The notes beneath the pieces are model-generated. The model saw nothing but the letters and a program-made list of their open reading frames with translations. It was not told the DNA's origin and did no database searches. The position numbers and the translations under genes were made by a program. Positions 13,954-30,872 of a stretch of 30,872 nucleotides of DNA are shown one piece after another. The DNA comes from a virus (Duplodnaviria > Heunggongvirae > Uroviricota > Caudoviricetes): IMG/VR virus record IMGVR_UViG_2657245091_000018, one strand, 5' to 3'. Positions within the stretch are counted from its first letter, which is position 1. Each line of letters starts with the position of its first letter.

Positions 13954-14655
13954 ATGGCCATGACCCCGTGTCAGCGACACCGAGCACGCGTGAAAGCCAC
14001 AAAGGCGCTGGATAAGTGCGAAGCCCTGACGGCATCGCCGGTCAGCTTTCACATTCAAATGCTGGAGCTGGAAAGGGATGTTGAACGGCTTCGCAGTCTG
14101 ACGCGTGCAGAACGCATGGACATGAAGCGCGACGTTCTTTTGCCGCGCTGGATGCCGACCGTCGAGGCATATCTCGCCGGTGATGCCCGCTTTGCCAATC
14201 CGGCCCTGGTTTACTGCGTGATCTGGCTGTTCGATACGGGGGAAATGGGCAAGGCGCTGGACTGGGCTGACGTGGCTATCAGTGAGAGCCAGGCCACGCC
14301 GGAAAACTTCAAAAGCAACCTGCCTGCCTTTGTGGCCGACACGGTGCTGGAGTGGGCGATCATGCAGGCGGAAGCCGGTCACAGCATCGAACCCTATTTC
14401 AGCCGCACGTTTGAAAACATCCGCGAAAAGTGGCGTTTGCACGAAGACATTAACGCGAAGTGGTTCAAGTTCGCCGGTCTTTACCTGCTGCGCGACGAGA
14501 AGGGGCAGCCGCGTGCCACTGCCGTGGATGATGTGAACACGCTGGAGCAGGCCGACGCCCTTTTGGCCCAGGCGGCGGCGTACAACAAAAACGCCGGAGT
14601 TAAGACCATGCGCGAAAAAATCCGCGCCCGGATTAACGGCCTGACCCAGCTTTAA
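13954..14655 (+). CDS. terminase small / endonuclease subunit (P2 gpM-like)
   Basis: 233 aa. N-terminal M-x-x-P-x-Q-R-H pattern and position after the capsid gene, as in P2 O-N-M-L. Confidence 0.75.
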   Translation: MAMTPCQRHRARVKATKALDKCEALTASPVSFHIQMLELERDVERLRSLTRAERMDMKRDVLLPRWMPTVEAYLAGDARFANPALVYCVIWLFDTGEMGKALDWADVAISESQATPENFKSNLPAFVADTVLEWAIMQAEAGHSIEPYFSRTFENIREKWRLHEDINAKWFKFAGLYLLRDEKGQPRATAVDDVNTLEQADALLAQAAAYNKNAGVKTMREKIRARINGLTQL

Positions 14656-27597: not shown

Positions 27598-29322
27598 ATG
27601 AAACCAATTAAACGCCTGTACCTTTCCTCTGATCCGGTCCATCTGATTGACTGCAATATCGTGCTGGAGCTGAACGCGTGCGGTCGGGGGTTTATTACGG
27701 CGGGGACAGAGACAGATTACACCGGCAAAATGGTGCGTATCGATGTTGGTTATGATGGTCTGGTCCTGCGCTGGTTTACCGGGTACGTCGAACGGTCACA
27801 GCCTGCTGATAATGGAACATGCCGGTTGTTCGTGCGTGAGCTGGTCGGCATCTTTGATAAATTGTGGCCGTGTTCTTTCCAGCATCCAACGTTGCGCCAG
27901 ATTACTGACTGGATAAGTGAGCAAAGCGGGCTGACCGTCACAACGCCGGTCGGCGCTGCTTATGCAGATAAACCGATCCCCCACTTTACGCACAGCGGCA
28001 CGGGCTATCAGCTTTTTGCCAGTCTGGGCCGTGCATTTTCAGTGACGGATTATCTTTGGTATCAGTTGCCGGACGGGGATGTCTTCGTCGGCGCTGCGGA
28101 GCATAGTCTTTTTGCGGGAAAACCAGTGGAGATCCCGCACGAATTTAGCCAGGAATCGGCAGGCGGAAATTCAATGGTTGTGCCAATGATTCAGAGCCTG
28201 CGCCCGGGTGCGGAGGTAAACGGCCAGCGGCTGAACCAGGTCCGGCTAAATAACGATGACATGGCAATTACCTGGCAGCCCCGCAACAAAGCCAACGGCC
28301 AGCCATTGCAAAAATCACCCATTCAGCGGCAGATTGAAAACGCATTCCCGGAGCTGGCAAGCGGCCTGCATCTTCCAAGATTCGCTAGGGTGGAAGCGCC
28401 AAGCGAGGATGTTTCAGGGGGGGATATTGCCGATCCATTCCGCCCACGCTATGCCGTGGATCTCCAGCTGCTTGACGAAGACGGCAAGCCAGCCGCAAAT
28501 ACGCCGATCTATTCTGCCGTTCCACTACCTGTGCCAATGGCGGGCAGCGAGTCAGGAATGTTTCAGTTTCCGCCCCCTGGCACGCTGGTTGAAGTTGGGT
28601 TCACTGAGGGGCGGCAGGATAAGCCCTTTGTGCGTCAGATTATGGCGGAGGGTCATAACCTGCCAGCGGTTAAACCCGGTGAGCAGTTGCAGCAACAGCG
28701 CGATGGTGTATCGCAGCGCGTGACGGTTGCCGGAGACTGGGAACGCCAGACGGATCAGACAATCCGCGAAAACTCCATGACTCGCGAAGTCACCACCGAC
28801 GAAGAGATCCGCAAAGTGGTTGCCCGTGAAACTACGGTCCAGGCAACAGATAAAACAACCGTGCTTGGCACGGCCACACTTCTGGCCGGGGCGGTCGTTC
28901 ATATCAGCGAGGGGGATTACAGCGTCGGCACATCCGGCAACCTGACAGTAACCTGCAGCAAGGACAATTCCGTCAGTGTTGGCCGGAACGTGAAACGGGA
29001 TGTCGCGGGCAATGTTACAGACGACGTGAAAGGGGATGTCACGTCAAACGTCAGCGGCGCACTGACTGAAAAAATCAGCGGCATTCGCCGAAGTGTGGCC
29101 CAGGCGCAACAACTGATTGCCCCGGTGGTAAAGCTGGGAAGCGAAGAGATTAACGTCCTGACACTGCTCACCGACACCCTGGACGTGGTGAGGGAGCTGG
29201 CAGAGACTGCCGCATCACATACTCACCCCAATACGGGGGCCAGTGGGCAGGCGGCGCAGTTCACCGCAACGGCCAATAAAACCGGCACATTGAAAAGCAA
29301 ATACGGCCCCCTGATAGCCTGA
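27598..29322 (+). CDS. baseplate hub / spike-like protein (gpD-like N-terminus with beta-helix-like C-terminal repeats)
   Basis: 574 aa. C-terminal region has short repeated V/T/S/N-rich segments (NLTVTCSKDNSVSVGRNVKRDVAGNVTDDVKGDVTSNVSG) typical of spike beta-helices. Last gene of the late operon. Confidence 0.5.
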   Translation: MKPIKRLYLSSDPVHLIDCNIVLELNACGRGFITAGTETDYTGKMVRIDVGYDGLVLRWFTGYVERSQPADNGTCRLFVRELVGIFDKLWPCSFQHPTLRQITDWISEQSGLTVTTPVGAAYADKPIPHFTHSGTGYQLFASLGRAFSVTDYLWYQLPDGDVFVGAAEHSLFAGKPVEIPHEFSQESAGGNSMVVPMIQSLRPGAEVNGQRLNQVRLNNDDMAITWQPRNKANGQPLQKSPIQRQIENAFPELASGLHLPRFARVEAPSEDVSGGDIADPFRPRYAVDLQLLDEDGKPAANTPIYSAVPLPVPMAGSESGMFQFPPPGTLVEVGFTEGRQDKPFVRQIMAEGHNLPAVKPGEQLQQQRDGVSQRVTVAGDWERQTDQTIRENSMTREVTTDEEIRKVVARETTVQATDKTTVLGTATLLAGAVVHISEGDYSVGTSGNLTVTCSKDNSVSVGRNVKRDVAGNVTDDVKGDVTSNVSGALTEKISGIRRSVAQAQQLIAPVVKLGSEEINVLTLLTDTLDVVRELAETAASHTHPNTGASGQAAQFTATANKTGTLKSKYGPLIA

Positions 29323-29527
29323 CAAAAAAGCGGCATAACCGCACACCTCACCAGACACCACAGAACGCGCCACAGCAGGCGCAAAGATTAAAGGTCGCCA
29401 CCGTGCGGCCTTTCTTTCGTTCGTTCAACAGCGGCCCACAGCGTAAGCGACAGCAGGCAAACGGAAGCGGATCCAGGACGGAAACGGCGCTACACCGCAC
29501 CCGCCTGCGCAGTTTGGATCATAAAAA

Positions 29528-29816
29528 TTTTGCAAAAGAAATTTTGTGCAAAGCACCCCGCCAGCCTGCGCCGCTGCTGGGCTTTTGCATCCTGCGGGCG
29601 TTGCACTCTGCGCAAAGATTTGCAGCACTTTGCAAAAGTCATCGCGCCGCCAGCTACTAACTGACTGGATAACATGATGTTTTTAAAAGGATCGTTTTGG
29701 TTTCCGTGACGATCAAAATGATTAGGTGGTATCCGATGGTTTTCGGGGGCGGATATCGTGAAGCCTTGTGCGGTGAGGGCTGGCGGCTAGTTTGCTTTGA
29801 TTTGGGTTTTGCAAAA
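29528..29816. promoter_or_regulatory. cluster of TTTTGCAAAA-type palindromes in a convergent intergenic region (candidate operator sites or structured RNA)
   Basis: Perfect 10-bp palindrome TTTTGCAAAA at 29528-29537 and 29807-29816; TTTGCAAA at 29629-29636; degenerate copies (ttttgtgcaaag ~29541, gcaaagatttgc 29611-29622). The surrounding 584-bp gap between convergent genes has no convincing ORF. Confidence 0.3.
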
Positions 29817-29906
29817 TGATGCACGAAGTTTTGATAAAAGGATCTCTAGCTAAGGGGGAGGGGAACGTATAAAAACCCCCGCCCTCTGGGTGATATTTTG
29901 TTCTAT

Positions 29907-30872
29907 TTATAGAAGTTTACTTACTGAAATCAGTTTGGGTGATTTAATGCCAATCTCACATAATGTTGTATGATGTGCTTCACGCTCAGTTTCCTGATAA
30001 TAGGTGGCTATCCATTCCGTATTTTCACTAACAATGCTATGTATAAAAGAAAAGTAGGGAACATCTACAGATGATAACGAATGGCCGATGATGATGATTT
30101 CGTCTACGTTGCTGAGATTTTTAAAAAATTTAGCGCTGTCAGCAATGACTTTTTCAGTATTCTTAAAAGAACAAGTGAAGTATTTATTAATAGTCTGCTT
30201 TCCCATTTCATAAGAGTGATCGTAATTATCAGCCATACACTGACGCCACTCTTCAAGTTCTTCATCGGTTGCATTTTCGGGCGGGACTGCTTCCTTTTCT
30301 TCAAAGTTGATAGGGTCAATACCATGACCTAAAATCAACTGTTGATCTGATGATGCTTTTCCATGGATATATAAAATTTGTCTATCATCAATACCATAGT
30401 ATTTCTGAAGAGTCTCAGTATAATTAAAACTGATAAAGATAGAGTCAGAATCGATACGCAATCTTTTATTTAAATTAAGTTCGGGGTAGTTAACCTGCAA
30501 TATAAATGACTTGAATTGTGTTAAAAGCCCTTCGGTTAAATTTTTTAGTATACGTTCCATTTCAATGCTTAATGAGCCCCAGTCCTTGTCACGAAAATCA
30601 GGGCTGCTAATTTGGGGTAAAAGATAGCAAAACTCTTCGAGCACTGACTCTGTATCCAGACCCGCTAAGCTGTTTTCGAAATCAGACCAAAGAAAATGTT
30701 TTGACTTATCAACTGCGGAAAGTTTAGGGGGTAAGTCAGTAAATCCCATAAAATCAACCAAGTGATCGTAAATGTCTTGGTCTTTCTTCCGAAGATAATC
30801 CCCAAATGAGAAATAGCTCGTGTCAAGTTCGTGATGCAGATCAAACCCATTCCCGATGATGTATAGCTTCAT
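29907..30872 (-). CDS. AbiH-like abortive-infection protein
   Basis: 321 aa; the start codon is the last three bases of the window. N-terminus MKLYIIGNGFDLHHELDTSYFSFGDY carries the conserved GNGFD signature I associate with the AbiH family. GC is about 35% by eye, clearly lower than the phage late genes. Confidence 0.65.
   Translation of the reverse strand: MKLYIIGNGFDLHHELDTSYFSFGDYLRKKDQDIYDHLVDFMGFTDLPPKLSAVDKSKHFLWSDFENSLAGLDTESVLEEFCYLLPQISSPDFRDKDWGSLSIEMERILKNLTEGLLTQFKSFILQVNYPELNLNKRLRIDSDSIFISFNYTETLQKYYGIDDRQILYIHGKASSDQQLILGHGIDPINFEEKEAVPPENATDEELEEWRQCMADNYDHSYEMGKQTINKYFTCSFKNTEKVIADSAKFFKNLSNVDEIIIIGHSLSSVDVPYFSFIHSIVSENTEWIATYYQETEREAHHTTLCEIGIKSPKLISVSKLL

What the first reader, a model, noticed from the sequence alone, without database searches (positions are those of the whole stretch)
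29907..30872. Low-GC AbiH-like gene abutting the tail-gene end of the prophage
The N-terminal GNGFD signature and the size (321 aa) fit the AbiH abortive-infection family, whose mechanism is still undefined. It is convergent with the late operon and has lower GC, so it looks like a second cargo or defence locus at the other end of the phage. Its promoter and any partner genes lie beyond the window edge, so I cannot tell whether it is inside the prophage or in the flanking chromosome.
Basis: partly seen in the sequence, partly recalled or inferred. Interest (0 to 1): 0.6.

Follow-up and report, generated by a model that had tools for sequence, protein, structure and literature searches.

The report
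AbiH defence gene carried by prophage
This is an intact copy of AbiH, a known single-gene anti-phage defence with a sirtuin-like fold, carried as low-GC cargo just inside the end of a P2-like prophage in E. coli; public annotation already names it, so it is a sound but ordinary finding.

Summary
A 321-aa ORF lies at 29907..30872 (minus strand), convergent with the tail operon, at 36.5% GC against 55% for the late genes. It matches Pfam AbiH over the whole profile (E=2.4e-60), and RefSeq already names it an AbiH family protein.

A 22-bp att repeat lies next to the integrase and again at the 3' end of the sRNA gene cyaR, 165 bp past the AbiH start codon. AbiH is therefore inside the 34.5-kb prophage and has no partner gene. 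Compared with Salmonella phage SI7, it is a ~1.16-kb insertion between the conserved tail-end sequence and the attP arm.

The most likely mechanism is NAD+ depletion triggered by infection, leading to abortive infection. This is inferred, not shown.

Verdict: already known, low interest.

The parts
29907..30872 (-). AbiH coding sequence, 321 aa, a single-domain SIR2-like protein. Motifs: G7-N8-G9-F10-D11 loop, F149-N150, H170-G171, G182-H183-G184, G263-H264-S265.
29819..29906 (.). 3' flank of the AbiH cassette. Homology to phage SI7 stops at 29818. It holds a G/C-rich hairpin (about 29853..29885) and a short terminator-like site on the + strand (29880..29892) between the convergent tail operon and AbiH.
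   Evidence: SI7 homology boundary. Terminator-like site at L001 13081-13093. The hairpin folds but is not significantly better than shuffles, z = -1.08, so its terminator function is only suggested.
29323..29818 (.). Conserved non-coding phage sequence between the last tail gene and the AbiH cassette. It belongs to the phage backbone, not to the cassette, and carries three TTTTGCAAAA palindromes.
   Evidence: The aligned stretch that includes this region is 94% identical to Salmonella phage SI7. Repeats.
27598..29322 (+). Last gene of the late (tail/baseplate) operon, 574 aa. It is convergent with AbiH and is listed only as the context that fixes where the cargo slot lies.
   Evidence: ORF. 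SI7 gp24 'baseplate protein'. The same gene neighbours AbiH in Salmonella and in IMG/VR contigs.

Best explanation
The gene is a functional AbiH, a one-gene anti-phage defence. It is carried as a ~1.16-kb low-GC moron cassette at the far right end of a 34.5-kb P2-like (Irrigatiovirus-type) prophage integrated at the 3' end of cyaR, next to yegQ/trhP. The cassette sits between the conserved tail-operon end and the attP arm, so it is inherited and transferred with the phage. These points are shown: family membership, position inside the att sites, absence of a partner gene, purifying selection, and a SIR2 (sirtuin-like, 'sirim') fold without a zinc module. These points are inferred: the lysogen expresses AbiH; a superinfecting phage activates it, probably through direct recognition of a phage component by the all-helical insertion (residues ~20-125), the only fast-evolving part; the activated enzyme consumes NAD+ using N150 and H170 as the catalytic pair; and the infected cell is starved of NAD+ and fails to yield phage, which protects the lysogen population and with it the prophage.
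Against: No NADase activity has been shown for any AbiH (searches list the mechanism as unknown). The link to sirtuins is at fold level only: nothing significant came from the PDB sequence search, from Pfam scans of 72 members, or from profile-profile alignment to CobB. The assignment of N150 and H170 as the catalytic pair therefore rests on motif order and secondary structure, not on a residue-level superposition. A second invariant His (H183) and invariant W62, E66 and K237 are unexplained. Foldseek E-values are weak (best 0.024). No convincing sigma-70 promoter was found upstream. This E. coli protein has never been tested against phages. An IS3 element interrupts the prophage early region, so the phage itself may be defective.
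Confidence: 0.62

Rival explanations
1. AbiH has the SIR2 fold but does not act by bulk NAD+ depletion. It could use NAD+ to ADP-ribosylate a specific phage or host target, or make an NAD-derived product, with the AbiH-specific invariant residues (H183, K237, E66, W62) forming a modified active site.
Confidence: 0.2
2. The gene is an inert passenger or decaying remnant that no longer provides defence.
For: The prophage carries an IS3 insertion in its early region. No clear promoter was found. There is no experimental test of this protein.
Against: The ORF is full length against the Pfam profile. All family-invariant residues are present. dN/dS is 0.31-0.36 against Salmonella and viral-contig copies. 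It is at least 99% identical across 19 E. coli genomes of several serotypes.
Confidence: 0.07
3. AbiH is not part of the prophage. It belongs to the flanking chromosome, or to a separate small island integrated in tandem at the same site.
For: Homology to phage SI7 stops at window 29818, before the gene. GC differs sharply from the phage.
Against: The att repeats enclose the gene and there is no third att copy. Phage-type P-arm sequence resumes beyond AbiH at L001 14180, as in SI7. yegQ-cyaR occurs in 5424 of 5426 genomes, but AbiH occurs only in the 19 that carry this prophage. The cassette has no integrase of its own.
Confidence: 0.03
4. The protein is a HAD-like nucleotidase or phosphatase rather than a sirtuin-fold enzyme.
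For: There are weak hits around the 'IIGHSLSxVD' strand-loop motif: PDB 5'-nucleotidase 4nv0 at E=0.07, and Pfam UMPH-1 in 7 of 72 members, best E=0.0055.
Confidence: 0.02

Closest known systems
AbiH of Lactococcus lactis (Prevots et al. 1996; Pfam PF14253; PADLOC and DefenseFinder 'AbiH')
   Same: Same family by full-length profile match. It is a single gene of similar size (321 aa here; the PADLOC AbiH profile is 343 positions), carried on mobile elements, with a SIR2-like predicted fold.
   Different: The host is Gram-negative and the vehicle is a P2-like prophage rather than an integrative conjugative element. The PADLOC profile matches only in two stretches, the best covering residues 119-308, so the N-terminal helical region is diverged. 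This member has not been tested.
Vibrio AbiH (bioRxiv 10.1101/2024.06.14.598830)
   Same: A one-gene SIR2-like AbiH in a gammaproteobacterium, shown to protect by 5.7 logs and to be inhibited by the small phage proteins Tlaloc and Enki.
   Different: Sequence identity to that protein was not measured here. Vibrio relatives in the homologue list are ~45% identical. The triggers and sensitive phages for the E. coli protein are unknown.
Defence sirtuins ('sirims'): SIR2-HerA/Nezha, ThsA of Thoeris, DSR2, KomC, Avs5 SIR2, and human FAM118B/SIRanc
   Different: AbiH is the SIR2 core alone. It has no SLOG, HerA, STAND, pAgo or large C-terminal sensor domain, so it must sense infection some other way. 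No sequence-level similarity is detectable. NADase activity has not been demonstrated.
P2-family cargo (moron) genes such as old, tin and fun/Z
   Same: Low-GC, non-essential defence genes inserted between conserved phage modules and variably present among related phages. The comparison with old, tin and fun is from my own knowledge of P2 biology.
   Different: The slot used here lies between the last tail gene and attP, not at the classical old/tin slot. In this prophage the old/tin position holds a separate, unannotated 930-aa gene.

Membership tests
AbiH (Pfam PF14253) | Significant, full-length match to the family profile above the curated cutoff | tested here: met
   E=2.4e-60, 205.3 bits against a cutoff of 30.9; residues 3-291 cover profile positions 1-260 of 260. 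phrog_19951 matches at 6.7e-54.
AbiH (PADLOC defence model PDLC02345) | Match to the defence-system HMM | tested here: met
   E=2.1e-29, 101 bits, in two stretches; the best covers residues 119-308 against profile positions 148-327 of 343.
AbiH | Conserved N-terminal strand plus the GNGFD loop and the other family-invariant residues | tested here: met
   G7-N8-G9-F10-D11 is at least 90% conserved. W62, E66, F149, N150, H170, G182, H183, K237 and G263 are invariant in 130 sequences down to 26% identity, and all are present here.
AbiH | Stand-alone, single-gene system with no obligatory partner | tested here: met
   The cassette flanks are 88 bp and ~100 bp and hold no other ORF. The neighbours are the tail gene and the att site/cyaR. 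The 56%-identity homologues have different neighbours. The literature describes a one-gene system.
AbiH | Confers phage resistance with an abortive-infection phenotype | not testable with these tools
   This needs plaque and MOI-dependent survival assays. It has been shown for homologues in Lactococcus, S. thermophilus and Vibrio.
SIR2 / sirim superfamily | SIR2-type Rossmann fold | tested here: met
SIR2 / sirim superfamily | Detectable sequence or profile similarity to SIR2 families | tested here: not met
   There is no SIR2 Pfam hit in any of 72 members at E up to 10. No sirtuin appears in the PDB profile searches. hhalign against CobB gives probability 0.2-0.4%.
SIR2 / sirim superfamily | Catalytic Asn and His in the NAD+ pocket | tested here: inconclusive
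   N150 and H170 are invariant. Each sits just after a beta-strand (145-148 and 166-168). They are collinear with CobB's TQNID and HG motifs, which are visible in the CobB sequence. No residue-level superposition was available, and H183 is a second invariant His.
Classical sirtuin deacylases | Zinc-binding Cys4 module | tested here: not met
   The protein has only four Cys (82, 212, 234, 305), with no CxxC pairs. None is conserved, and C82 is Ser in Salmonella.
SIR2 / sirim superfamily | NAD+ hydrolase activity | not testable with these tools
   A biochemical assay is required. No AbiH has been assayed in the papers read.
Prophage moron / cargo cassette | Lies inside the att-bounded element, is absent from a related phage at the same position, and has atypical composition | tested here: met
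   The att repeats enclose it. SI7 has ~100 bp there instead of 1160 bp. GC is 36.5% against 55%.
Prophage moron / cargo cassette | Own promoter and terminator | tested here: inconclusive
   Hairpins flank the gene on both sides. The upstream one, outside the window, has z = -2.84; the downstream one has z = -1.08. Only one weak promoter-like site was found (9 of 12 matches), and it lies upstream of the upstream hairpin.

The most novel reading that the evidence does not exclude
AbiH would be a minimal, sensor-less sirtuin whose fast-evolving helical insertion (residues ~26-60) directly recognises a phage protein. Its placement, convergent with and immediately downstream of the tail operon, would then act as a built-in safety switch: late-operon read-through during the prophage's own induction would silence AbiH by antisense transcription, so the phage does not abort its own lytic cycle. 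Alternatively, the AbiH-specific invariant residues (H183, K237, E66, W62) could mark a chemistry other than plain NAD+ hydrolysis.
Probability: 0.12. Interest if true: 0.55.

Novelty: already known. Interest (0 to 1): 0.2.

Why it matters
No AbiH protein has been shown biochemically to degrade NAD+, and no trigger is known, even though the family is very large (6,854 cluster representatives) and is reported to occur more often in phage than in bacterial genomes. This copy sits in E. coli, the easiest host for such work. It is a compact 1.16-kb cassette, and a natural comparison exists in the related phage SI7, which lacks it. It is therefore a convenient test case rather than a discovery. It also shows that this prophage type carries cargo at both ends of its structural module. 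Nothing here changes current understanding.

Tried and rejected
(1) I looked for a sequence-level bridge from AbiH to sirtuins. I tried profile searches of PDB sequences with a shallow and a deep alignment, Pfam scans of all 72 members at E up to 10, and hhalign against E. coli CobB, both as a single sequence and as an 81-sequence alignment. None was significant. The genome scan for CobB returned only orthologues of 86-100% identity, so that profile was too shallow.

(2) tblastn of AbiH against 50,697 sequenced phage genomes found nothing at E<=1e-5. The phage link comes from prophages and IMG/VR contigs.

(3) NCBIfam has no matching model.

(4) The tandem-island idea was rejected, because there is no third att copy even with four mismatches allowed.

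(5) I tested whether AbiH sits preferentially near the ends of viral contigs. The excess is modest (12 observed against 6.4 expected within 3 kb) and the contigs are not independent, so I did not rely on it.

(6) Searching for this prophage's integrase and tail genes near other AbiH loci found them only next to the 96-100% identical copies. There is no conserved AbiH-phage backbone pairing.

(7) The BFVD viral fold search gave one unnamed hit at E=3e-4 and was uninformative.

(8) The promoter scan found no convincing site.

(9) An Rfam scan of the region found nothing apart from CyaR outside the window.

Full report
**Observation.** The window holds an uninterrupted 321-codon ORF on the minus strand at 29907..30872, and its ATG is the last three bases of the window. 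RefSeq calls the same CDS in 19 complete E. coli genomes and names it 'bacteriophage abortive infection AbiH family protein', WP_000780870.1. A GGAG ribosome-binding site lies 8 nt upstream, just outside the window. The gene is convergent with the + strand tail genes. Its GC is 36.5% (GC3 35%), against 55% for the late region and GC3 61% for the adjacent tail gene.

**Family.** The protein matches Pfam PF14253 (AbiH) at E=2.4e-60 and 205 bits, against a cutoff of 30.9, covering profile positions 1-260 of 260. It also matches the PADLOC AbiH model at 2.1e-29 and phrog_19951 at 6.7e-54. NCBIfam has no model for it. An exhaustive profile search finds 6,854 cluster representatives at E<=0.001 and 973 at E<=1e-30, so this is a very large family. 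In 130 sequences down to 26% identity, W62, E66, F149, N150, H170, G182, H183, K237 and G263 are invariant. The GNGFD loop and H264-S265...D270 are at least 90% conserved.

**Location: inside or outside the prophage.**
- The window is identical to E. coli 2011C-4251 (NZ_CP027388.1), which let me read beyond both ends.
- Past the AbiH start codon come 165 bp of non-coding DNA, then the sRNA gene cyaR (Rfam 100.7 bits), then yegQ/trhP.
- At the other end of the element lie yegR, then a phage integrase, repressor and cox.
- A 22-bp direct repeat, AAAAAATAAGCCCGTGTAAGGG, occurs once between yegR and the integrase and once at the 3' end of cyaR. No further copy exists, even with four mismatches allowed.
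- The repeats bound a 34,469-bp element that includes AbiH.
- The yegQ-cyaR segment is present in 5,424 of 5,426 E. coli genomes. In some listed genomes without AbiH the homology begins at or 1 bp before the att core; in others it begins about 70 bp earlier, in shared P-arm sequence.
- K-12 carries the P2 remnant PR-X (ogrK, yegZ) at this site, annotated as starting inside cyaR. cyaR is listed as a P2-type insertion site in E. coli W, K-12 and B (PMC3032704).
- AbiH is found only in the 19 genomes that carry this prophage, always with the same junction. The Salmonella orthologue (92% identity) has the same yegQ-AbiH-tail gene arrangement.

AbiH is therefore phage cargo, not flanking chromosome.

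**Cassette structure.** The closest sequenced phage is Salmonella phage SI7 (Peduoviridae, Irrigatiovirus). It is 94% identical across the tail end up to window 29818. Its homology then resumes in the attP arm at L001 14180. SI7 has about 100 bp between those two points, and this prophage has 1,160 bp. AbiH plus short flanks is thus an insertion between conserved phage sequences, which is the pattern of a moron. Hairpins flank the gene on both sides, but only the upstream one, outside the window, folds clearly better than shuffled sequence (z = -2.84, against -1.08 for the downstream one). No convincing promoter was found. There is no room for a second gene. More distant homologues (56% identity) sit among HNH nucleases in a CP4-57-like island with variable neighbours. 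IMG/VR holds relatives on 114 viral contigs, but only the 96-100% identical copies are in this phage type. AbiH therefore moves as a self-contained single gene.

**Is it alive?** The ORF is full length and keeps every invariant residue. dN/dS against the Salmonella copy and two viral-contig copies is 0.31-0.36. Eleven of the 27 amino-acid differences from Salmonella fall in residues 26-60, where about three would be expected by chance. That stretch lies in the first helical insertion.

**Mechanism.**
- AlphaFold2 with a 72-sequence alignment gives a confident model, pLDDT 94.7 and pTM 0.89.
- Foldseek is weak, with a best E of 0.024, but ranks DSR2, SIRT3 and SIR2-HerA first.
- The four conserved strand-loop motifs of AbiH are LYIIGNGFD, FISFNYTE, ILYIHG and IIIIGHSLS. 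They are collinear with CobB's VLVLTGAGIS, LLVTQNID, VIHMHG and IFIAIGTS.
- There is no zinc module: the protein has four unconserved Cys and no CxxC pair.
- The residue equivalence is an inference. Every attempt at a sequence-level bridge failed, and I could not superpose coordinates.
- Published work reached the same fold assignment for AbiH and proposes NAD+ depletion (FEMS Microbiol Rev 2026; the SIRim paper).
- AbiH homologues protect Vibrio by 5.7 logs and are inhibited by two small phage proteins. They also protect S. thermophilus against one phage genus. No paper I read shows NADase activity for AbiH.

My best account is an infection-activated NAD+-consuming abortive-infection enzyme. 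It would sense the phage through its helical insertion, because it has no separate sensor domain. An ADP-ribosyltransferase or some other NAD-dependent chemistry remains a real alternative.

**Comparison and verdict.** This is a clear member of a known family and is already named in public annotation. It sits in a known kind of place, a cargo slot of a P2-like prophage at a known att site. The open question about location is now resolved, and the phrase 'mechanism undefined' should be softened to 'fold known, biochemistry untested'. Novelty: already known. Interest is low (0.2). Its value is as a convenient E. coli test case for AbiH biochemistry.

Noticed in passing
window 5415..8207 (+): A 930-aa ORF with 31% GC sits between the replication endonuclease gene and the ogr/portal genes, which is the position of the P2 old/tin cargo slot. 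It has no Pfam hit above cutoff, no PADLOC hit, and is 'hypothetical protein' in RefSeq. This large, unannotated candidate defence gene looks more novel than AbiH.
   Followed up: partly
window 1..~150 (L003 8645-9858): The window starts inside an IS3-family transposase inserted in the prophage early region, between a cox-adjacent gene and the downstream early genes. The prophage may be unable to induce.
   Followed up: no
window 29528-29537, 29628-29637, 29807-29816: Three copies of the palindrome TTTTGCAAAA (two perfect, one with a single mismatch) lie within 290 bp of the conserved non-coding region after the tail operon. These are the only perfect copies in the window, which has 9 matches allowing one mismatch against 3.1 expected. 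They may be binding sites for a phage regulator or recombination factor. The aligned stretch that includes this region is 94% identical to phage SI7.
   Followed up: partly
L003 6254-6266 and L001 14178-14190 (outside the window): A 13-bp motif, GATGTGGTCAATG, is shared between the chromosome side of attL and the phage side of attR. In some listed genomes without AbiH, homology to the attR P arm starts at L001 ~14165-14171. This suggests remnants of earlier P2-like arms at this att site.
   Followed up: partly
L001 15874-16468 (outside the window): A RelE/ParE-ParD toxin-antitoxin pair lies between yegQ and yegP in this strain. It is absent from the same interval in K-12.
   Followed up: no
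AbiH residues 26-60 (window ~30693..30797): Eleven of the 27 amino-acid differences between the E. coli and Salmonella AbiH cluster in this 35-residue helical stretch, where about 3 would be expected. It may be a diversifying recognition surface.
   Followed up: partly
L005-L009 (Klebsiella and related contigs): The 56%-identity AbiH homologue lies in a CP4-57-like island, with an HNH nuclease gene upstream in all five loci, an HNH_2 gene immediately downstream in four of them, and further ScoMcrA-type HNH_2 genes nearby. The island also carries antirestriction, RadC and CbeA genes. This looks like a defence-island context with possibly recurrent HNH neighbours.
   Followed up: no
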